Virus record (IMG/VR): IMGVR_UViG_2695420855_000005
Coordinates: 1 to 18,451 of that record
Length of the DNA stretch: 18,451 bases
From: a virus
Taxonomy: Duplodnaviria; Heunggongvirae; Uroviricota; Caudoviricetes
Direction: 5' to 3' (one strand)
Positions 493 to 12,768 of this stretch are shown here, in pieces (the stretch's first letter is position 1; every line of letters begins with the position of its first letter). The translations under genes were made by a program, and so were the position numbers. The notes beneath the pieces are model-generated. The model was not told the DNA's origin. It made no database searches and saw nothing but the letters and a program-made list of their open reading frames with translations.

Positions 493-591
493 GCCTGATG
501 CGCTATGCTTATCAGGCCTACATAGTCCCTGCAATAGATTGAATTAGCAAGAGTTTGTAGGCCGGATAAGGCATTCAAGCCGCATCCGGCA
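493..591. repeat. Pair of REP (repetitive extragenic palindrome) elements, BIME-like, between convergent torZ and cmoB
   Basis: gcctgatgcgctatgcttatcaggcctaca (493-522) and tgtaggccggataaggcattcaagccgcatccggca (556-591) match the enterobacterial REP consensus family. Confidence 0.6.
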
Positions 592-2805: not shown

Positions 2806-3621
2806 TCAGAAAAGAGAAGATTGCTGTGGAATAGCCGGAACTGCTCCGATCTCTGGAAGCGTTTTACGTAAGTCTTCCCACAGGGTATGTACCAGTTCCG
2901 GGGCCTGGGCAATGTCTGGCGTATGTAAAAAAAGATAAGGCGTAGTGGTCTGATGCCACTGCGCTAATTTCTGTAACCAGACCTGAAATAATTCCCGGTT
3001 TTGCGTCATATCATCACTACCGATAAAACGGATCAGCGGATTTGTCGCCGTCAGTACAGCATGTACTGGAACTTTAGGTTTTTTTCGTTGAGCGTCGCGA
3101 ATAGCTTCACTGTGTGGACATGCTGCATGAACCGGGCGGCTGTCTAAAATCACCCGATTAACGCCGCGCTGATGTAAACCGCGATTAAGCGTTTGTTCCT
3201 CTTCCCCTTTGGCGAAAAACTGTGGATGGCGGACTTCCACACCATAATTAAATTCGCCAGGGAGAGAATCGAGAAAATGCCAAAGCGCAGGCAGCTCCCG
3301 TGGGCCGAATGTGGCAGGCAGTTGCAGCCAGTATTGCCCAATGCGCGGAGCCAACGGTGACATGCGGGTCAAAAATTCAGTCACTAAATCATCGCAATGT
3401 CGTAATGCTGCCTGATGCGAAATGGTCGCCGGAAACTTAAAACAGAAGCGGAAGTCATCTGTGGTCTGTTCACGCCAGCGCAGGACAACCTCGGGTTTCG
3501 GCAGGGCGTAAAGCGTGGTGTTGCCCTCCACGCAGTTAATGTGACGGCAACTACCATTAAAATAACTGATATTTAAAGATATTATTTCAGAGTCTGGCTC
3601 TATGGGGCATGTATGGGACAC
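2806..3621 (-). CDS. yecE: DUF72-family protein YecE; 5' ~80 nt appear prophage-derived (hybrid ORF with GTG start), so the N-terminus is probably non-native
   Basis: From ...NCVEGNTTLYALPKPEVVLRWREQTTDDFRFCFKFPATISHQAAL... onward it reads as YecE; first ~27 codons (MSHTCPIEPDSEIISLNISYFNGSCRH) overlap the integrase 3' end and lack the usual DUF72 N-terminal motif (from memory). Confidence 0.75.
   Translation of the reverse strand: MSHTCPIEPDSEIISLNISYFNGSCRHINCVEGNTTLYALPKPEVVLRWREQTTDDFRFCFKFPATISHQAALRHCDDLVTEFLTRMSPLAPRIGQYWLQLPATFGPRELPALWHFLDSLPGEFNYGVEVRHPQFFAKGEEEQTLNRGLHQRGVNRVILDSRPVHAACPHSEAIRDAQRKKPKVPVHAVLTATNPLIRFIGSDDMTQNRELFQVWLQKLAQWHQTTTPYLFLHTPDIAQAPELVHTLWEDLRKTLPEIGAVPAIPQQSSLF
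3535..3590. other. Approximate attL (prophage-host junction): AT-rich stretch at the overlap of the int 3' end and the yecE 5' end
   Basis: Inferred from where yecE-like coding sequence begins and from the int stop at 3587-3589; exact core not determinable without attR or an empty-site sequence. Confidence 0.4.
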
Positions 3622-4873
3622 TCTCTGTCAACTGCTTATTGAGTAGTTCTATTTGCCCGATATTGTTATCTTCCATCCATGCACCGTAAACGTTGAATAC
3701 CATTTGTGCATTTGCATGGCCCATTTGGTTTGCTATGAAGCTTGGATTCGCTCCTGCCGATAATGCCCAGCAGGCATAAGTATGCCTAGACTGATAGGCT
3801 TTTCTGTGCCGCAGTCCTGCTCGCCTTAATGCAGATGCCCAGGAATCTCTGATGGAATCTGCTTTATAGTGGTGGCCGACTTGCTGGCATTTTTTCACCA
3901 GTTGCGGATTAAAAACAAACGTGCATTCATGGCTTGTGCTGCGTCCGAACTCCCGCAGTTTGACATCAATTTGATATTGCTGGTCAAACCTTGTCATTTC
4001 AGCCTGGCTTTTCAGGGCATCAACAGCTGGTTGAACAAGATGAATAACACGATCAGTTCCCGCCTCTGTTTTTGGTAGAGTGAACTCCCCGAGTTTTGTA
4101 TAATTACGACGGATAGTCATTGTTTTAGCTTTTAAATCAATATCCTCCCAGGCGAGAGCTATTAGCTCACCGTGACGAATGCCTGTGTATACTGCTAAGG
4201 ACCACAGGTTTTTCGTTTGTTGATGGTGACAGGCATCAATAAAGCGAATAAATTCGTCACGCGTGAGCGGATCTGGCTCTGTTCTTGATCTCTTTAATGG
4301 TGTCAGCCCGTTAAATGGGTTTGACCCGATATAGCCGTTATCAGCAGCAAATTGAAACATTCCTGCAATTGTCGTCATGTAGTAATTAACCGTAACTACC
4401 GATCTCCCTTTAACCGGCGTTGTTTTTCCATTAGAGAGATTATGATACCCGGTTAACAAATCTTTCCTGATAAACAGTAAATCTTCCTTTGTTACAGACG
4501 AAGCAAGACGTTTTTCCCCTATGCGAGGAAGCATGTTTCTCACCACGGATTGATACCGACTGAATGCATTGCTTCCTATCTCTATTTTCTTAAGGTCCAG
4601 CCATTTTTCCGAAAGTGCCTTAACTGTTATCTCTCTTTTCCCCAGGCCAAAGTGTTTCAGGTTAGGGGAATTAGGGAACTGCGCGGCGTAGTCGAAACTC
4701 CCCATTCTGATTGCAAAACAAACGGAAGTGCGAAGTTCACCTGCGATCTTCCGGTTTTTGGCGGTGTCAGGAACACCGAGGTTTTCTCTGACACGTTTGC
4801 CATTATAGTGAAACCATATGCGGAGTGATCCGCCATGGTTTTCAACGCCTGTCGGGTATGATGCGTTACTCAT
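3587..4873 (-). CDS. int: Phage tyrosine integrase (site-specific recombinase)
   Basis: 428 aa; C-terminal catalytic region ...LRHRKAYQSRHTYACWALSAGANPSFIANQMGHANAQMVFNVYGAWM... consistent with the R-H-R-Y tyrosine-recombinase signature; strong RBS GGGAGG before the ATG. Confidence 0.92.
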   Translation of the reverse strand: MSNASYPTGVENHGGSLRIWFHYNGKRVRENLGVPDTAKNRKIAGELRTSVCFAIRMGSFDYAAQFPNSPNLKHFGLGKREITVKALSEKWLDLKKIEIGSNAFSRYQSVVRNMLPRIGEKRLASSVTKEDLLFIRKDLLTGYHNLSNGKTTPVKGRSVVTVNYYMTTIAGMFQFAADNGYIGSNPFNGLTPLKRSRTEPDPLTRDEFIRFIDACHHQQTKNLWSLAVYTGIRHGELIALAWEDIDLKAKTMTIRRNYTKLGEFTLPKTEAGTDRVIHLVQPAVDALKSQAEMTRFDQQYQIDVKLREFGRSTSHECTFVFNPQLVKKCQQVGHHYKADSIRDSWASALRRAGLRHRKAYQSRHTYACWALSAGANPSFIANQMGHANAQMVFNVYGAWMEDNNIGQIELLNKQLTESVPYMPHRARL

Positions 4874-8158: not shown

Positions 8159-8359
8159 TTAACTGGTTAGTTCTTTTTCAGCAGCTGCTTCAGCATAGCA
8201 ACGTGCGAATTCAAGAACTTCATCACCTGTTCTTTTTATTGCGTCGTTGTCTGACATTTGTAATACAACAACTGCGCATAATAAATTATGGATATTGTTT
8301 GCAAAGGAATCCGGTGCCAGGCATAAGCCTTCATACTTATCATGGATATTGCCAGTCAT
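8159..8359 (-). CDS. Small protein (66 aa from the ATG with AAGGAG RBS) paralogous to the N-terminal domain of the upstream tandem-HTH protein
   Basis: ...LAPDSFANNIHNLLCAVVVLQMSDNDAIKRTGDEVLEFARCYAEAAAE... aligns with ...LDLDSFALTIANLLSAVRTFNLLDDTRLKEVGFDVLEFTHEYALAIA... of the neighbouring gene; ATGA start/stop overlap. Confidence 0.6.
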   Translation of the reverse strand: MTGNIHDKYEGLCLAPDSFANNIHNLLCAVVVLQMSDNDAIKRTGDEVLEFARCYAEAAAEKELTS

Positions 8360-9057
8360 TGTTGCTGCTCCTTTGCTTCTGATTTTCCCGTTAACAACCA
8401 CATCAGGTCACAATTAAGTGCACTGGCCAGTGGTACTATCTGAGCAGCTGGAACTTCATGGATGCCGCATTCCCAGTCGTTTATGGGGTCACTATAGGTA
8501 TGAATCATGCGGGCAAGATCAGATTCGGTTAATCCCAGTTTTGTACGGGCGCTTTTGATGCGTGCGCCAATACTTTCCACATGGACTTCAGGCGCATTTA
8601 CGCGAATAACTGACTCGCTGTTTTTTTCACTCAGCAGAGAAAGCGGATCGCATCCCAGGACGTTTGCCAGGGGGATAAGCATGCTGATGGTTGGTTCGTA
8701 CTCTCCACTCTCCCATTGCAGGATAATCTCTTCGTCAAGATCGAGTAGTCTGGCCAGTTCGGTAGTCGTCAAGCCGCAGGCTTCACGTTTGGTGCGTATG
8801 CAGGCTATCTTGTTGCCTGAGCGAATAGAATGTTGTTGTTTTGTCGATGCGATCGCTAAAGCATATTCATGAGTAAATTCCAGCACATCAAACCCAACCT
8901 CTTTTAATCGCGTATCATCCAGGAGGTTGAAGGTGCGAACAGCACTGAGCAGGTTTGCGATGGTTAATGCAAAAGAATCGAGGTCTAATTCATCACATAA
9001 AACCTTGTTGTAAGTATTGAGGCTACATGTTTTTGGTGTTGTTTGTAAGGCTTCCAT
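8356..9057 (-). CDS. DNA-binding protein with an N-terminal domain of unknown function followed by two tandem XRE-type helix-turn-helix domains; first gene of the leftward early operon (alternative TTG start at 9093)
   Basis: Two HTH_XRE-like segments (...LTTTELARLLDLDEEIILQWESGEYEPTISMLIPLANVLGCDPLSLL... and ...LTESDLARMIHTYSDPINDWECGIHEVPAAQIVPLASALNCDLMWLL...); ATG at 9057 has a GGTGAT RBS. Confidence 0.75.
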   Translation of the reverse strand: MEALQTTPKTCSLNTYNKVLCDELDLDSFALTIANLLSAVRTFNLLDDTRLKEVGFDVLEFTHEYALAIASTKQQHSIRSGNKIACIRTKREACGLTTTELARLLDLDEEIILQWESGEYEPTISMLIPLANVLGCDPLSLLSEKNSESVIRVNAPEVHVESIGARIKSARTKLGLTESDLARMIHTYSDPINDWECGIHEVPAAQIVPLASALNCDLMWLLTGKSEAKEQQQ

Positions 9058-9111
9058 ATCATCACCATGCAATTCTAAGTTGAAGTTAATCAATATATAA
9101 TTGATGGTGAG

Positions 9112-9203: not shown

Positions 9204-9893
9204 CTAACCAAATCTGTTGATATTGAATGGTACAGATGAGATGACTTTTGACTGGATATACAGCAGCGCCATTCCCTCTTTTTCGATGCTCCACGGCTGA
9301 TAGTTGGGATTGTCTGATAAGACCATGATCTTGCTTCCAATTTTTTGAAGTCGTTTGACGTAACATTCGCCATCAAAGCAAAATGCATAAATGCCATCAC
9401 CGTCAAAATAAGTTACTGTTTTATCTAAAAACAGTAAGTCACCTGGGGCGATTGTTGGGGCCATGCTGTCCCCTCTGGCGTTACCGATTTCTATGTTCTT
9501 GAATGCTCTGTTACCGACCAGGCGGCGGGCATATTCAGGATCAAGTTCTATTGAGCGTACTACATCAATTAGATCTCCCCGTACATGAGTTCCGTCGCCG
9601 CAGCTGAATTCAACATCCAGCACATTGAACACAACGCTGTCTTCTCTTGTATGGTGTTTTTCAGCTGAAGAGTGTGTCGATGAGGTATCTTCACCCAAAA
9701 ACCAGGATTGTGGATAACCACTAATTACTGATAGCTGTGCAAGTTTATCGCTTCTGGGAAACGTCTTTCCTGTAGTCCAGTATTGTACTGATTGCGCGCT
9801 TACACCCAGCTTACGGGCTAGTTCAGCCTGACTCCAGCCTTTCGTTTTCAGCATCATTGCTATCCGATTTTCTGTGCTTTTTACATTCTTCAT
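9204..9893 (-). CDS. cI: Prophage CI-type repressor (N-terminal HTH_XRE + C-terminal LexA/S24 peptidase-like autocleavage domain)
   Basis: HTH ...WSQAELARKLGVSAQSVQYWTTG...; S24 region ...GDSMAPTIAPGDLLFLD...YVKRL... (Ser/Lys dyad); AGGA RBS before the ATG at 9891-9893; divergent from the cro-like gene. Confidence 0.9.
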   Translation of the reverse strand: MKNVKSTENRIAMMLKTKGWSQAELARKLGVSAQSVQYWTTGKTFPRSDKLAQLSVISGYPQSWFLGEDTSSTHSSAEKHHTREDSVVFNVLDVEFSCGDGTHVRGDLIDVVRSIELDPEYARRLVGNRAFKNIEIGNARGDSMAPTIAPGDLLFLDKTVTYFDGDGIYAFCFDGECYVKRLQKIGSKIMVLSDNPNYQPWSIEKEGMALLYIQSKVISSVPFNINRFG

Positions 9894-10025
9894 GGTGAGT
9901 TCCTGTCGAGGCTTTATACACATAAATATTAACTTGATTTTAGTGTATTCGATCCTTTTGAAACTTGCATGTTAATTTATTCTTGATATATTCTTGATTT
10001 GTAAAGTTAATATTGGAGCTGCGCT
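9894..10025. promoter_or_regulatory. Immunity-region intergenic (OR-like): divergent promoters and repeated CTTGAT motifs that are candidate operator half-sites
   Basis: AT-rich 132 bp between divergent cI and cro; CTTGAT three times (aaCTTGATttta, ttCTTGATatat, ttCTTGATttgt); possible rightward promoter TTGATA-n18-TAATAT. Confidence 0.5.
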
Positions 10026-10283
10026 GTGATAAAACTGAATGATTACGACATGTTGCGTAAATTGATCCCTCAAAACGCCATAGCGAGATACATCGGTGTT
10101 ACGCCACAAGCGGTGAACCTGTGGTTTTCTAAAAACTCCGTTCCTTCCCGTTTTGTTTTACGGGTGTGTGAATTGGTTGAATGGAAGGTTACTCCGCATG
10201 GGTTAAGACCTGATCTATACCCTTATCCCGAAGATGGAATTCCTGATTCGTTACGAAAATCAAACGGTATTACCAGAGATTAA
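10026..10283 (+). CDS. cro: Cro/YdaS-like small HTH regulator (GTG start; alternative ATG at 10050)
   Basis: 85 aa; HTH ...NAIARYIGVTPQAVNLWFSKNSVP...; GGAG RBS; divergent from cI. Confidence 0.75.
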   Translation: MIKLNDYDMLRKLIPQNAIARYIGVTPQAVNLWFSKNSVPSRFVLRVCELVEWKVTPHGLRPDLYPYPEDGIPDSLRKSNGITRD

Positions 10284-10364
10284 AGACTGACTGTCACGAG
10301 CAGTAACTCACGATGCATACGTTTTGGCGTGAGTTCTGAAATGTCATTCTCAAGGAGCAATCAG

Positions 10365-11072
10365 ATGAATACCGCAATTTTTACCGATAAAGCATCCATG
10401 ACCAGCGTTGAGATCGCAGAGCTGGTGGGTAAGCGTCATGACAATGTAAAACGCACTATTGAAACATTAGCCAAAGGTGGTGTTGTCCGGTCTCCTCAAA
10501 TTGAGGTTTCCGAAAGAATCAATAACTTAGGGTTTAAAGTTCAACACGAGCATTATCTGTTTGAAGGCGAACAAGGTAAGCGCGACAGTATCATTGTTGT
10601 CGCGCAGCTTTGCCCTGAATTCACCGCTCGCCTGGTAGACCGCTGGCGCGAACTGGAAGAACAAATCCGCAAACCAATGAGCCAGATCGAAATGGTTGCT
10701 GCAATGGCGCTTGAAGCTGTTCGCCAACAAAGACGTCTTGAGCAGGTGGAAGAGAAAGTCACCCACGTTACTGAAACTGTCGAACAAATCAAAAGAGGCG
10801 CCATACGCGATGGTTATGCAGGCTATCGTCAGCTGGCGGCGAAAACGGGTATGTCAGATGCGAAATGCCGCAATCTGGTGAACGCATATCAGATCCCTAC
10901 CGACACTCATGAATTTATGACGCCGGACGGATTGTTGTCGCGTCGTGCAATTGTTGCTGTAGAACCCTTCATGTCTGCTTTTCATCGCATGATGAGTGAA
11001 GCAGAACCACGAGGTACTCGCTGGTATCACCCGAAAATGGGGTTGTTCCAGGCGCTGGGCTGGCAGGTGTAA
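10365..11072 (+). CDS. Rha-family phage regulatory protein (antirepressor-like), 235 aa from the ATG with AAGGAG RBS
   Basis: N-terminal ...TSVEIAELVGKRHDNVKRTIETL... matches the Rha (Phage_pRha) domain as recalled. Confidence 0.8.
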   Translation: MNTAIFTDKASMTSVEIAELVGKRHDNVKRTIETLAKGGVVRSPQIEVSERINNLGFKVQHEHYLFEGEQGKRDSIIVVAQLCPEFTARLVDRWRELEEQIRKPMSQIEMVAAMALEAVRQQRRLEQVEEKVTHVTETVEQIKRGAIRDGYAGYRQLAAKTGMSDAKCRNLVNAYQIPTDTHEFMTPDGLLSRRAIVAVEPFMSAFHRMMSEAEPRGTRWYHPKMGLFQALGWQV

Positions 11073-11091
11073 TTATGCTCACAGGTAACAC

Positions 11092-11265
11092 ATGCAAGTA
11101 CTCAATCGCTGGTTCCGTGATGGAAGGGGGCGTCGCGTCCACGTTATACGCTGGGAGTCTGAAACACAGCGGGTTATTTACCTGCGTGATGGTTATCCGC
11201 ATGAATGCTTCAGCCCGCTGTGGTTGTTTCGTCGTGATTTTGTTGAGTGCGAAGCACCAGCATAA
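11092..11265 (+). CDS. Hypothetical small basic protein (57 aa, MQVLNRWFRDGRGRRVHVIRWESETQRVIYLRDGYPHECFSPLWLFRRDFVECEAPA)
   Basis: Not in the supplied track (<60 aa); same frame as the downstream FinO-like gene; weak RBS. Confidence 0.35.
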   Translation: MQVLNRWFRDGRGRRVHVIRWESETQRVIYLRDGYPHECFSPLWLFRRDFVECEAPA

Positions 11266-11328
11266 GCTTGAACTGCTTGAAAAACCTGGATATATCATTC
11301 TGATATCTAGAGTAATGGAGAATGGTAT

Positions 11329-11721
11329 ATGGGAAGAAAAGCAAGGCATCTTGCAAATAAAGAAATCATTAAAGTATTGGCTGAACGCTATCCAGAAAGC
11401 TTCTTTGTTATTCCATACAAAGTTGTTCCGCTTGTTCACGATATCGTTCATGAGCTTTTTGCCGATCTCGGACATATACCTAAGGAATATAAAAACAGCC
11501 TTCGAAGAGCCATCTATCAGTACAAAAGCTCCGCTGCATACCTTCAGTCAGTCGCGTTTGGAGAATATCGCCGCAATCTGGCTGGAAATCGTATTGTCAG
11601 AACTTCCGTATCTGAGCGCGAAGAAGCCAGAGCACAACTCAAAGAACGTGGTGTCTGGACTCGTCGTATGGAGCTCTTGTTCAAAGTTAATATGGGTAGA
11701 AAAGAAGCGTCTAATCGCTGA
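11329..11721 (+). CDS. FinO/ProQ-domain RNA-binding protein (RNA chaperone family), 130 aa
   Basis: ...KEIIKVLAERYPESFFVIPYKVVPLVHDIVHELFADL...LRRAIYQYKSSAAYLQSVAFGEYRRNLAGNRIVRTSVSEREEARAQLKE... aligns by eye with the E. coli ProQ N-terminal FinO domain (...KEVIAFLAERFPHCF...[49 protein letters not shown]...) from memory; GGAG RBS. Confidence 0.75.
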   Translation: MGRKARHLANKEIIKVLAERYPESFFVIPYKVVPLVHDIVHELFADLGHIPKEYKNSLRRAIYQYKSSAAYLQSVAFGEYRRNLAGNRIVRTSVSEREEARAQLKERGVWTRRMELLFKVNMGRKEASNR

Positions 11722-12013
11722 ATTTTATCAAAACATTGATTCCTCAATTTCGGGACGTTACACTGTTCAGGCACCTTATAAAGCGGGTGTCGGGATTGGC
11801 GTCCTGGAATTCAATATAGAGCATAACCGCGCTCATGCGGTCTTTTCGTATCATGAGCATTGCTACGTCCAAATTATGGTGGGGCGTGCAGGGGCATCGC
11901 AAGATGCGCCGGGTTCTATGTTGACCGGTTACGCCAACCCTGTACGTCTCACCACCTCTGTGATTGGCGTCCCATGTGGTGAGTTCTTTGAATTCAACAT
12001 AGGGGCTGTCACC

Positions 12014-12577
12014 ATGACTACTTTCCCAACTCTCTCTCAACCTGAAATTGCCATCGTTGATGGTCAGGCTGTTACATCTTCTTTGGCTGTTGCTGACTTC
12101 TTCTCTAAACGTCATGACGATGTTCTGAAAAAGATCCGCATTTTGGATTGTTCTCCAGAGTTTTGTGCCCGCAATTTTGCGGAGACATCAATTTTGGTAC
12201 GCCAGCCCAACGGCGGTACTCGCAAACTTCCCTGCTATCAAATCACCCGCGACGGCTTCGCATTCCTTGCTATGGGCTTCACTGGCAAGCGTGCCGCCCG
12301 GTTCAAAGAGGCATACATCAATGCCTTTAACCAGATGGAGAGGAGCTTATCAGGAGCTGGTGCGGCTGAGATGTCATCTGTCGCACAAAACGCCAGAGGC
12401 GTATACCTGCATTTGCGTGAAATCCATCAAATCTGGAGAAGCCAGCTTTATCCCATGCTTAAGGCTGTTGAATCTCCGCTGGCTGGCAAACTGTACGACC
12501 GTGTAGGTGATGCAGTTTTTGGTGCTGCACTTGTTGATTCCAGGCTGAATGGTTCTGACAAGGAGGTGCACCCATGA
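12014..12577 (+). CDS. Second Rha-family phage regulatory protein (188 aa); N-terminal extent uncertain because the frame stays open upstream
   Basis: ...QAVTSSLAVADFFSKRHDDVLKKIRIL... Rha-type motif; ATG preceded by AGGGG. Confidence 0.7.
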   Translation: MTTFPTLSQPEIAIVDGQAVTSSLAVADFFSKRHDDVLKKIRILDCSPEFCARNFAETSILVRQPNGGTRKLPCYQITRDGFAFLAMGFTGKRAARFKEAYINAFNQMERSLSGAGAAEMSSVAQNARGVYLHLREIHQIWRSQLYPMLKAVESPLAGKLYDRVGDAVFGAALVDSRLNGSDKEVHP

Positions 12578-12768
12578 TTAGTTACGAAATCATCATCTCC
12601 ACTACGGAATACAGAAACGATGTATCAGTTCGCACGGATGTATCTGTCTGGCATCGTCGCTATAAATCCAGAAAAACGGCGGAACTGAAAGCGGCAGGGA
12701 TGTGTGAAACCATCTCAATGAAAGGCAGCCCGGTTAAATACATCACAACGGCGGAGGTGCGTCCATGA
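12574..12768 (+). CDS. Hypothetical small protein (64 aa), ATGA-coupled to the upstream gene
   Basis: Start overlaps the Rha stop; no recognisable motif. Confidence 0.45.
   Translation: MISYEIIISTTEYRNDVSVRTDVSVWHRRYKSRKTAELKAAGMCETISMKGSPVKYITTAEVRP

What the first reader, a model, noticed from the sequence alone, without database searches (positions are those of the whole stretch)
11329..12013. Prophage-encoded FinO/ProQ-domain RNA chaperone with a candidate small RNA immediately downstream
A 130-aa ORF in the cII position of the immunity region, bracketed by two Rha-family genes, carries a convincing FinO/ProQ-type domain. FinO-family proteins (FinO with FinP/traJ, ProQ, RocC with RocR) act on structured RNAs with terminator-like 3' hairpins. 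Directly after its stop is a 292-bp non-coding gap with a plausible sigma70 promoter (TTGATT 11736-11741, 17-nt spacer, TACACT 11759-11764) and a hairpin plus U-rich tail (accgc-gctcat-gcggt-cttttcg, 11826-11848), which would give a roughly 75-80 nt transcript. A phage using a dedicated FinO-like matchmaker next to its immunity genes would be a distinctive, and as far as I know uncharacterised, regulatory arrangement for a lambdoid prophage.
Basis: partly seen in the sequence, partly recalled or inferred. Interest (0 to 1): 0.7.

Follow-up and report, generated by a model that had tools for sequence, protein, structure and literature searches.

The report
FinO-like chaperone beside IsrK/C4 antirepressor switch
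A rare E. coli prophage gene encodes a small FinO/ProQ-type RNA-binding protein that sits directly upstream of a known two-RNA switch (IsrK plus C4 antisense RNA) controlling an antirepressor, and distant relatives of the protein keep the same position in other mobile elements, which suggests it is the switch's own protein helper, a link I found no paper describing.

Summary
ORF 11329-11721 is a genuine stand-alone FinO/ProQ-domain protein: Pfam PF04352 51.7 bits, AlphaFold pLDDT 93.6, and the 26 best PDB matches are all FinO-domain structures. The "candidate sRNA" is real but already known.

Its a'/b' segments pair with a1/b1 inside IsrK and with a2/b2 at the Shine-Dalgarno of the downstream Rha-family antirepressor. 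The gap is therefore a P1 immI / Gifsy-1 isrK-orf45-anrP type module.

The new part is synteny. In 9 of 11 FinO-like protein lineages (32-51% identical) with enough downstream DNA, the gene is followed on the same strand by a leader/terminator plus a C4-type RNA. The RNAs have different pairing specificities and precede different antirepressor genes (Rha, Bro-N, AntA, ORF6N, "Derepression").

Host ProQ is reported to associate with IsrK in Salmonella. I infer a dedicated chaperone for this RNA switch; binding and the direction of the effect are untested. The gene is rare: 14 of 5426 complete E. coli genomes, and no tblastn match in 50,697 phage records for the window protein or the two relatives tried.

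The parts
11329..11721 (+). Stand-alone FinO/ProQ-domain protein gene (130 aa) with an extra C-terminal helix after a conserved Trp110
   Evidence: Pfam PF04352 at 51.7 bits. AlphaFold2 with a 29-sequence alignment gives pLDDT 93.6. The top 26 Foldseek PDB hits are all FinO-domain proteins: RocC, Lpp1663, NMB1681, FinO. Y71, R81 and R101 align with ProQ Y70, R80 and R100. PGAP names it 'ProQ/FINO family protein' WP_038813125 in strain GB089.
11736..11764 (+). Sigma70-like promoter of the RNA unit (TTGATT, 17 nt, TACACT)
   Evidence: Read directly from the sequence. It lies 7 nt upstream of the 5' end of the IsrK Rfam match. It matches only 8 of 12 consensus positions and was not called by the scan. 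Comparable promoter-like hexamers lie between the FinO stop and the leader in the homologous loci I inspected by eye, for example L009, L014 and L020.
11771..11847 (+). IsrK-type leader sRNA carrying the decoy sites a1 (11796-11802) and b1 (11811-11819), ending in an intrinsic terminator (11826-11848)
   Evidence: Rfam RF01394 at 54.1 bits, GA 50. Terminator-like site called. a1 and b1 are complementary to C4 a' and b'. A weak c4-a1b1 hit overlaps it.
11872..11959 (+). C4-type antisense RNA with recognition segments b' (11916-11924) and a' (11931-11937)
   Evidence: Rfam RF01695 at 80.1 bits, GA 45. Across 9 homologous RNAs, 14 of 27 pairs show compensatory changes while the a' and b' segments are hypervariable.
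11964..12005 (+). C4 target sites a2 (11964-11970) and b2 (11994-12002), with b2 abutting the GGGG Shine-Dalgarno (12002-12005) of the antirepressor gene
   Evidence: Exact complements of 7 and 9 nt to the same C4 segments that match a1 and b1. Shuffle test: 2 of 2000 shuffles reach the observed value.
12014..12577 (+). Rha-family antirepressor-type gene (187 aa from ATG 12014; a 233-aa form is possible from the in-frame orf45-like ATG 11876)
   Evidence: PF09669 at 95 bits. TIGR02681 and PHROG 'anti-repressor/transcriptional regulator' families match. Its position corresponds to that of anrP in Gifsy-1 (PMC4825925).

Best explanation
The locus is a three-part RNA switch for an antirepressor, with its own protein cofactor.

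Shown here:
- A promoter just after the FinO-like ORF drives a leader RNA, IsrK, which carries sites a1 and b1 and ends in an intrinsic terminator.
- Read-through of that terminator would give C4 antisense RNA and then the mRNA of the Rha-family antirepressor.
- C4 segments a' and b' are complementary to a2/b2 at the antirepressor ribosome-binding site, and also to a1/b1 in IsrK.

Established for homologues:
- In P1 and P7, C4 pairing at a2/b2 blocks translation of the icd-ant operon (own knowledge).
- In Gifsy-1, short IsrK acts in trans on the read-through transcript and switches anrP translation on (PMC4825925).

Inferred:
- The 130-aa FinO-domain protein encoded immediately upstream binds the terminator hairpin and U-tail of the IsrK-type leader, which is the canonical FinO-domain ligand. 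That terminator would also be the 3' end of the protein's own mRNA.
- It may also bind the basal stem and 3' tail of C4.
- It stabilises the RNA and speeds the two-site loop pairing between IsrK and C4, or between C4 and the mRNA, and so sets how much antirepressor is made.

Best guess on direction: the gene sits in the rightward early operon downstream of the Cro-like gene. The protein would then appear on derepression or infection and favour IsrK-C4 pairing, releasing antirepressor translation as a feed-forward commitment to lytic growth. The opposite direction, reinforcing C4 repression as FinO does for FinP, is nearly as likely.
For: FinO-domain identity:
- Pfam match above cutoff and PDB sequence hits to ProQ, Lpp1663 and RocC.
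- High-confidence model whose only significant PDB matches are FinO-domain structures.
- Conserved residues across 19 family members: Y71 19/19, R101 18/19, basic residue at 81 in 15/19, P34 19/19, A100 19/19.

RNA identity:
- Rfam IsrK and C4 hits above gathering score.
- C4 covariation, 14 of 27 pairs compensatory.
- a/b complementarity to both flanks, beyond shuffles.

Coupling:
- An HMMER scan of 1.84 billion cluster representatives found a small family of 124-131-aa stand-alone relatives.
- A leader plus C4-type RNA follows the gene on the same strand in the window lineage (window, L008), P0002/L009 (51% identical; integrase/Cox-type element; next gene 'Derepression'), P0005/L014, P0008/L017-19 (Bro-N), P0010/L020-22 (P2-like), P0012/L023, P0009/L016, P0011/L024 (AntA) and P0006/L025 (ORF6N).
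- Each locus has different a/b words, and in the loci where a called downstream gene is visible that gene differs. The constant part is therefore the FinO gene plus the RNA unit.
- Apart from tandem repeats of the unit, no C4-type hit was found elsewhere in the roughly 110 kb of flanking DNA scanned.
- Host ProQ is listed as associating with IsrK in Salmonella (PMC5391140).
Against: - No binding or expression data exist for this protein.
- The RNA module clearly works without it. The query stretch that includes isrK-C4-Rha matches 1530 of 5426 E. coli genomes, but only 14 carry the FinO gene. P1, P7 and Gifsy-1 lack it.
- Two homologues stand alone: Xenorhabdus L004 beside a toxin-antitoxin pair, and P0003/L012 with a convergent gene 50 nt away. 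Neither has a C4-type RNA.
- In L020-22 a called convergent ORF separates the gene from the RNA unit by about 550 nt.
- C4 has no terminator, so it is not a textbook FinO ligand.
- Synteny could reflect shared descent of a cassette rather than a direct interaction.
- The direction of the effect cannot be read from sequence.
Confidence: 0.62

Rival explanations
1. The FinO-like gene is a free-riding accessory gene whose product acts on host RNAs, for example by mimicking or competing with chromosomal ProQ. Its place next to the IsrK/C4 unit would then reflect only a common insertion slot in front of antirepressor cassettes.
For: - It is rare and optional: 14 of 5426 genomes against 1530 matching the stretch that includes the RNA module.
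- Related Stx1a phages join the upstream Rha-like gene directly to the RNA unit, with no FinO or DUF4222 gene.
- Homologues in Xenorhabdus and L012 lack any C4-type RNA.
- FinO-domain proteins recognise shape rather than sequence, so host terminators could be bound (own knowledge; PMC9977716).
Against: - The same order and strand are kept in 9 of 11 lineages down to 32% identity, across lambdoid, P2-like, AlpA/satellite-like and unclassified elements, while both flanks change.
- Chance adjacency to an RNA that occurs about once per prophage would be well below 1% per lineage (my rough estimate, not computed).
Confidence: 0.2
2. The 292-bp gap is protein-coding, as an N-terminal extension of the Rha gene (or an 'ash family protein'), and not an RNA locus. 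The FinO ORF would then have no RNA neighbour.
For: - The Rha frame is open from 11075 to 12577.
- PGAP annotates a 287-aa Rha CDS starting at the FinO stop in GB089, and 'ash family protein' over the repeats in N96.
- phrog_821 carries about 143 extra N-terminal profile positions.
- Gifsy-1 orf45, which overlaps the C4 region, is translated and is fused to anrP in S. dysenteriae (PMC4825925).
Against: - Two Rfam families score above gathering cutoffs.
- The C4 helix shows compensatory base changes, while the loops vary in step with their targets.
- The Rha Pfam domain begins at residue 21 of the short form, and ATG 12014 has a Shine-Dalgarno.
- In Gifsy-1 relatives the nucleotide sequence of orf45 is conserved but its amino-acid sequence is not (PMC4825925).
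- Translation from ATG 11876 may still happen, as a coupling device layered on the RNA.
Confidence: 0.05
3. The protein does serve the RNA switch, but as a repressive matchmaker, as FinO does for FinP. It would stabilise C4 and speed C4 pairing with a2/b2, tightening antirepressor silencing and immunity.
For: - In the characterised FinO-family pairs I know of (FinO/FinP-traJ, FopA/Inc-repZ, RocC/RocR, ProQ/RaiZ), the chaperone supports repression by the antisense RNA (PMC9977716; own knowledge).
- The long basal stem of C4 with a short 3' tail resembles a terminator-like ligand.
Against: - C4 lacks the U-tail terminator that FinO domains prefer, whereas the IsrK leader has one in every locus inspected.
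- In the window the gene lies in the early rightward operon. If that operon is repressed in a lysogen (inferred), the protein would be absent when immunity must be kept.
Confidence: 0.28

Closest known systems
Gifsy-1 isrK-orf45-anrP locus of Salmonella (Hershko-Shalev et al. 2016, PMC4825925)
   Same: - The same Rfam IsrK family, terminator-ended, about 77 nt.
- Read-through into a structured region that Rfam scores as C4, with an orf45-type AUG about 106 nt from the predicted start.
- A downstream antirepressor-type gene whose translation is gated by pairing between IsrK and that region.
   Different: - Gifsy-1 has the antiterminator operon (antQ) upstream, not a FinO-domain gene.
- There, orf45 ends at the anrP start (AUGA). 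In the window the orf45-like frame is fused in frame to Rha.
- The pairing words differ.
Phage P1/P7 immI operon (c4 RNA - icd - ant; Citron & Schuster 1990, cited from own knowledge and PMC12197685)
   Same: - A C4 RNA with two recognition segments, a' and b'.
- Duplicated targets: a1/b1 upstream of c4 and a2/b2 at the ribosome-binding site of the next gene.
- An antirepressor as the controlled product.
- Specificity set by the a/b words.
   Different: - There is no icd gene here.
- The antirepressor is Rha-family, not P1 Ant.
- The module sits inside a lambdoid early-right operon.
- P1 and P7 encode no FinO-domain protein.
FinO with FinP/traJ of F-like plasmids; FopA with Inc/repZ of pCol1B9; RocC with RocR of Legionella (PMC9977716, PMC7491321)
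   Same: - A FinO-domain protein encoded on a mobile element.
- It is expected to bind a terminator-type hairpin of a highly structured antisense RNA that pairs with its target through loops.
   Different: - To my knowledge, chaperone and RNA genes are not adjacent in those systems, and none involves a decoy RNA or an antirepressor.
- This protein is a minimal 130-aa domain with a C-terminal helix. It lacks the long N-terminal helix of FinO and the linker and Tudor-like domain of ProQ.
- Its RNA ligands are untested.
Chromosomal ProQ of Salmonella and E. coli
   Same: - The same domain. The best PDB sequence match is the ProQ N-terminal domain, 5nb9, E=9e-6.
- ProQ is reported to associate with IsrK (PMC5391140).
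   Different: - It scores 41.7 bits against the NCBIfam ProQ equivalog, whose cutoff is 127.
- It has no C-terminal domain.
- It is prophage-borne and rare.

Membership tests
FinO/ProQ domain family (Pfam PF04352) | Sequence match to the family HMM above the curated cutoff | tested here: met
   51.7 bits against a cutoff of 27, E=1e-13, residues 10-107. phmmer against PDB: ProQ N-terminal domain 5nb9 at E=9e-6, Lpp1663 6s10 at E=9e-4.
FinO/ProQ domain family (Pfam PF04352) | FinO-domain fold (helical core with a beta-hairpin) | tested here: met
   AlphaFold2 model with pLDDT 93.6 and pTM 0.85. Foldseek PDB ranks 1-26 are all RocC, Lpp1663, NMB1681 or FinO with probability 1.00; the next hit has E>3.
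FinO/ProQ domain family (Pfam PF04352) | Conserved RNA 3'-end/terminator-binding residues (ProQ Y70, R80, R100; residue roles from own knowledge of ProQ mutagenesis and the RocC-RocR structure) | tested here: met
   Y71, R81 and R101 align with them. Across 19 family members Y71 is 19/19, R101 is 18/19, and position 81 is basic in 15/19.
FinO/ProQ domain family (Pfam PF04352) | Binds structured RNAs or terminator hairpins and aids antisense pairing | not testable with these tools
   Needs gel shifts, CLIP or RIP-seq.
ProQ proper (NCBIfam NF003434 equivalog) | Full-length architecture (N-terminal FinO domain, linker, C-terminal Tudor-like domain) and a score above the equivalog cutoff | tested here: not met
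   41.7 bits against a cutoff of 127. The protein is 130 aa and matches profile positions 6-105 of 205 only.
IsrK sRNA (Rfam RF01394) | Covariance-model score above gathering; two 5' hairpins plus an intrinsic terminator | tested here: met
   54.1 bits against GA 50, full-length match to positions 1-77. Terminator-like site at 11826-11841 plus T-tail.
IsrK sRNA (Rfam RF01394) | Lies upstream of the orf45/C4 region and an antirepressor gene, and pairs with that region | tested here: met
   C4 at 11872-11959 and Rha at 12014. a1/b1 are complementary to C4 a'/b'. The locus organisation is as described in PMC4825925.
IsrK sRNA (Rfam RF01394) | Expressed as a discrete ~77-nt RNA | not testable with these tools
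   No transcript data. The promoter hexamers match only 8 of 12 consensus positions.
C4 antisense RNA / P1-type immI module (Rfam RF01695, clan CL00128) | Covariance-model score above gathering, with covarying helices | tested here: met
   80.1 bits against GA 45. 14 of 27 pairs have compensatory changes among 9 homologues.
C4 antisense RNA / P1-type immI module (Rfam RF01695, clan CL00128) | Two recognition segments complementary to a1/b1 upstream and to a2/b2 at the ribosome-binding site of the downstream gene | tested here: met
   a: TTGGCGT at 11796 and 11964. b: TCAATATAG at 11811 and TCAACATAG at 11994, the latter abutting the GGGG Shine-Dalgarno. Shuffle control: 2 of 2000.
C4 antisense RNA / P1-type immI module (Rfam RF01695, clan CL00128) | Controlled operon is icd-ant, as in P1 and P7 | tested here: not met
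   No separate icd ORF. The downstream gene is Rha-family, not P1 Ant. This is therefore an immI-like module, not the P1 operon itself.
C4 antisense RNA / P1-type immI module (Rfam RF01695, clan CL00128) | C4 matured from the read-through transcript (by RNase P in P1) | not testable with these tools
   Needs RNA end mapping.

The most novel reading that the evidence does not exclude
A distinct clade of minimal FinO-domain proteins (about 125-131 aa, with a conserved Trp and a C-terminal helix) is the dedicated protein cofactor of C4/IsrK-type, and sRNA-Xcc1-type, antisense switches that gate antirepressor translation in prophages and satellite-like elements. It would be encoded as one cassette: chaperone, decoy leader, antisense RNA, antirepressor. 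That would be the first FinO-family chaperone tied to a phage lysis-lysogeny or anti-immunity decision. It would also be the first case I know of in which chaperone, antisense RNA and decoy RNA are inherited as a single unit.
Probability: 0.5. Interest if true: 0.75.

Novelty: new variant of a known kind. Interest (0 to 1): 0.62.

Why it matters
C4-type RNAs were the first antisense "repressors" described in phages, and to my knowledge they are treated as acting without a dedicated protein. FinO-family chaperones are known from plasmid conjugation and copy control, from competence, and as the global ProQ regulator.

A conserved cassette that links the two would have three consequences:
- It would give the FinO family a role in prophage induction and superinfection immunity.
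- It would offer a compact natural system (chaperone, decoy, antisense RNA, target) for studying how FinO domains choose ligands and speed loop-loop pairing.
- It would explain why host ProQ associates with IsrK.

It also has practical value for annotation. The isrK/C4 DNA is routinely annotated as protein ('Rha' extensions, 'ash family protein'). In most of the E. coli genomes listed here that carry the FinO-like gene, the gene itself is not annotated.

Tried and rejected
- Word-indexed protein search with the single protein found only its own 97%-identical cluster. With a family alignment it found 8 proteins. The exhaustive HMMER scan was needed to find the family.
- A single-sequence AlphaFold run gave a poor model, pLDDT 60.8, and was discarded in favour of the alignment-based model.
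- The search for related loci with alignments failed for lack of a conserved 7-10-column stretch. With single distant proteins in viral contigs it found nothing.
- tblastn of the window protein, P0008 and P0010 against 50,697 phage records gave no match.
- Against plasmids, tblastn found only true proQ or unrelated ProQ/FinO genes in Sodalis and Allochromatium. I did not inspect those contexts.
- The second-type cassette (L009) is essentially absent from complete E. coli genomes.
- I considered the 500-aa ORF 11075-12577 as a real gene and rejected it. It overlaps two genes that have family support. Its +1-frame openness recurs in only some distant FinO homologues (L009, L023; 1-12 stops in the other nine). 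The gap is explained by two RNA families.
- I considered the minus-strand ORF 11744-12115 and rejected it for the same reason.
- Literature searches for any FinO/ProQ link to C4 or to antirepressors found none. One 2026 survey lists 'BRO, Icd, ProQ' together in an Enterobacter satellite without comment.
Full report
**1. What is in the sequence**

The window is the left part of an E. coli lambdoid prophage.
- Host genes (cmoB and cmoA-type methyltransferases, DUF72) are followed by an integrase at 3587-4873 on the minus strand.
- Next come a cI-like S24 repressor (9204-9923, minus strand) and a Cro/YdaS-like gene (10026-10283).
- The rightward operon continues with a Rha-like gene (10329-11072), a DUF4222 ORF (11092-11265), the ORF in question (11329-11721), a 292-bp gap, a second Rha-family gene (12014-12577), and replication genes: HTH_36, an IstB/DnaC-like ATPase and a DnaB helicase.
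- The closest complete genome is E. coli GB089 (96% identical). There PGAP already calls the ORF 'ProQ/FINO family protein'.

**2. The protein**

The 130-aa product is a genuine FinO/ProQ-domain protein.
- It matches Pfam PF04352 at 51.7 bits, against a cutoff of 27.
- By sequence alone it matches the solved ProQ N-terminal domain, Lpp1663 and RocC.
- A first single-sequence structure prediction was poor. With 29 family members the model reached pLDDT 93.6.
- The 26 best PDB matches of that model are all FinO-domain structures, with nothing else significant.
- Y71, R81 and R101 align with ProQ Y70, R80 and R100. From my own knowledge of ProQ mutagenesis and the RocC-RocR structure, these residues form the pocket for the 3' end of a terminator. 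They are invariant or nearly so in the family.
- It is not ProQ itself. It scores 41.7 bits against an equivalog cutoff of 127 and has no linker or C-terminal domain. It is a minimal domain plus one extra C-terminal helix after a conserved Trp110.

**3. The gap**

The RNA they bracket is a known one: Rfam IsrK, 11771-11847, above the gathering score.

The pairing logic is complete.
- C4 segment a' (ACGCCAA) matches TTGGCGT both inside IsrK (a1, 11796) and after C4 (a2, 11964).
- C4 segment b' (CTATGTTGA) matches TCAATATAG in IsrK (b1, 11811, with one G-U pair) and TCAACATAG at 11994 (b2).
- b2 runs into the GGGG Shine-Dalgarno, 9 nt before ATG 12014.

This is the anatomy of the P1/P7 immI region (own knowledge; PMC12197685) and of the Gifsy-1 isrK-orf45-anrP locus. 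In Gifsy-1, short IsrK acts in trans on the read-through transcript and turns on anrP translation (PMC4825925).

The orf45-type ATG sits at 11876, about 106 nt from the predicted start, much as in Gifsy-1 (first AUG at +107). Here it is in frame with Rha, a fusion that the Gifsy-1 paper notes for S. dysenteriae.

The gap is therefore an RNA locus that may also be partly translated. It is not an anonymous spacer, and it is not simply an N-terminal extension of Rha.

**4. Is the protein linked to the RNAs?**

In E. coli the two are separable.
- The stretch 11000-12700, which includes the isrK-C4-Rha part, matches 1530 of 5426 complete genomes.
- The FinO-like gene is in only 14, always as one 97.5%-identical copy.
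- Related Stx1a phages lack both it and DUF4222.

Near-identical copies say nothing about function, so I looked for distant relatives. An exhaustive HMMER scan of 1.84 billion cluster representatives found 57 hits. About twenty of them are stand-alone proteins of 124-131 aa.

For the eleven lineages with enough downstream DNA, nine are followed on the same strand by a terminator-ended leader and a C4-type RNA:

| Lineage and locus | Identity to window protein | Element context | RNA found downstream | Next gene |
|---|---|---|---|---|
| Window type (window, L005-L008) | 97-100% | Lambdoid; L008 has a different immunity region | isrK + C4 | Rha (L008 contig ends) |
| P0002 / L009 | 51% | Integrase-repressor-Cox element next to cpxP | isrK/a1b1 + C4 | 'Derepression' protein |
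| P0005 / L014 | 41% | Next to GmrSD and AAA_15/AAA_21 ATPase genes (defence-like by my reading) | isrK-like (41 bits, below gathering) + C4 | Contig ends |
| P0008 / L017-19 | 36% | AlpA nearby | C4 | Bro-N |
| P0010 / L020-22 | 34% | P2-like, Ogr/Delta | C4, about 550 nt away | No Pfam match |
| P0012 / L023 | 37% | Unclassified | Leader (isrK 46.8 and c4-a1b1 44.2 bits, both just below gathering) + start of a C4-like stem | Contig ends |
| P0009 / L016 | 38% | Unclassified | sRNA-Xcc1 | ORF, no Pfam match |
| P0011 / L024 | 32% | Unclassified | sRNA-Xcc1 | AntA |
| P0006 / L025 | 35% | Salmonella prophage, nin region | Two sRNA-Xcc1 units | ORF6N after each |

- The sRNA-Xcc1 hits obey the same rule as C4. 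Two internal segments are complementary to sites in the upstream leader and again at the Shine-Dalgarno of the next gene.
- Per locus, 0 to 6 of 2000 flank shuffles reach the observed complementarity.
- Every locus uses different a/b words, and the C4 helices covary (14 of 27 pairs).
- The two exceptions are a Xenorhabdus gene beside a toxin-antitoxin pair, and P0003, which has a convergent gene 50 nt away.
- Two further lineages, P0004 and P0007, sit on contigs too short to judge.

The flanks, the element types and the regulated genes all change, while gene order and strand do not. I read this as selection for keeping the chaperone gene with the RNA unit.

**5. How it most likely works**

Shown:
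- The domain and its conserved RNA-binding residues.
- The two RNAs and their complementarities.
- The conserved synteny.

Established elsewhere:
- FinO domains bind terminator hairpins with a U-tail and speed antisense pairing (PMC9977716).
- IsrK is listed among the ProQ-associated sRNAs of Salmonella (PMC5391140).
- IsrK activates anrP translation in trans (PMC4825925).

Inferred:
- The protein binds the IsrK-type leader at its terminator. That terminator is also the first one downstream of its own ORF, so the leader would form the 3' end of its own mRNA.
- It may also bind C4, and it tunes IsrK-C4 or C4-mRNA pairing.
- My best guess on direction comes from the gene's position in the early rightward operon. 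The protein would appear on derepression and push the switch toward antirepressor synthesis.
- The reverse, FinO-like reinforcement of C4 repression, is nearly as likely. No sequence feature decides between them.

**6. Comparison and novelty**

- The protein is a member of the FinO/ProQ domain family, but it is neither ProQ nor F-plasmid FinO.
- The RNAs are members of the IsrK and C4 families. The module is immI-like but lacks icd and has a Rha-type antirepressor.
- Phage-encoded FinO-fold proteins exist in databases, for example in phiM9, 7-11, SU7 and Aeromonas 4_4572. A 2026 survey lists 'BRO, Icd, ProQ' in one Enterobacter satellite.
- I found no paper connecting FinO-domain proteins to C4 or IsrK switches. 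The search covers open-access text only.
- The individual parts are known, and the conserved pairing looks new. I classify it as a new variant of a known kind.

**7. Limits**

- Many loci are short metagenomic contigs of unknown host.
- Look-up caps stopped a wider census.
- Nothing here shows expression or binding.

Noticed in passing
L016 1057-1138; L024 1452-1536; L025 3502-3587 and 4055-4143: Rfam sRNA-Xcc1 (RF02221) has no clan listed in these outputs, unlike C4 (CL00128), yet its hits behave exactly like C4 RNAs. Two internal segments are complementary to sites in an upstream terminator-ended leader and again at the Shine-Dalgarno of the next gene (an unnamed ORF in L016, AntA, ORF6N). 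This suggests sRNA-Xcc1 is a C4-type antirepressor switch.
   Followed up: partly
L003 2772-3979 (E. coli N96); L007 3443-4000; L025 3502-4747: The RNA unit occurs in tandem: three isrK-C4 units in N96, two in an IMG/VR contig, and two sRNA-Xcc1-ORF6N units in a Salmonella prophage. PGAP lays an 'ash family protein' CDS over the N96 repeats.
   Followed up: partly
window 11075-12577; L001 4715-5578: The Rha reading frame is open for 500 codons, running through DUF4222, the FinO ORF and both RNAs. PGAP and PHROG models (phrog_821 matches only profile positions 144-322) treat the RNA region as an N-terminal part of Rha. Of the 14 complete E. coli genomes that carry the FinO ORF, 10 have no ProQ/FinO feature listed under the match. 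The ORF is intact where I checked it (L003).
   Followed up: partly
window 11329-11721; L009 4001-4393; L023 3001-3375: The +1 frame of the FinO gene has no stop codon in the window-type genes, in the 51%-identical L009 gene and in L023. Nine other homologues have 1 to 12 stops. This is probably codon bias or chance, but it is unexplained.
   Followed up: partly
window 514-556 (- strand): An Rfam gathering-level hit to the ES036 (CssrF) sRNA lies beside the host cmoB gene, outside the prophage.
   Followed up: no
window 11092-11265; L008 4746-4937; L009 8317-8393: A DUF4222 ORF directly precedes the FinO-like gene in two different immunity backgrounds (window and L008). In the L009 element a DUF4222 ORF lies a few kb away. 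Its function and any link to the cassette are unknown.
   Followed up: no
window 8356-9093 (- strand) and 9204-9923 (- strand): Two adjacent leftward HTH regulators: a 245-aa HTH_3 protein next to the S24 cI-like repressor. With two Rha/Ant-type genes to the right, this prophage carries an unusually dense set of repressor and antirepressor genes.
   Followed up: no
BFVD hits: FinO-fold proteins are predicted in several phages I know as virulent (own knowledge): Sinorhizobium phiM9, Salmonella 7-11 (two copies), Escherichia SU7, Cronobacter GAP52 and Aeromonas 4_4572. I did not examine their RNA partners.
   Followed up: no
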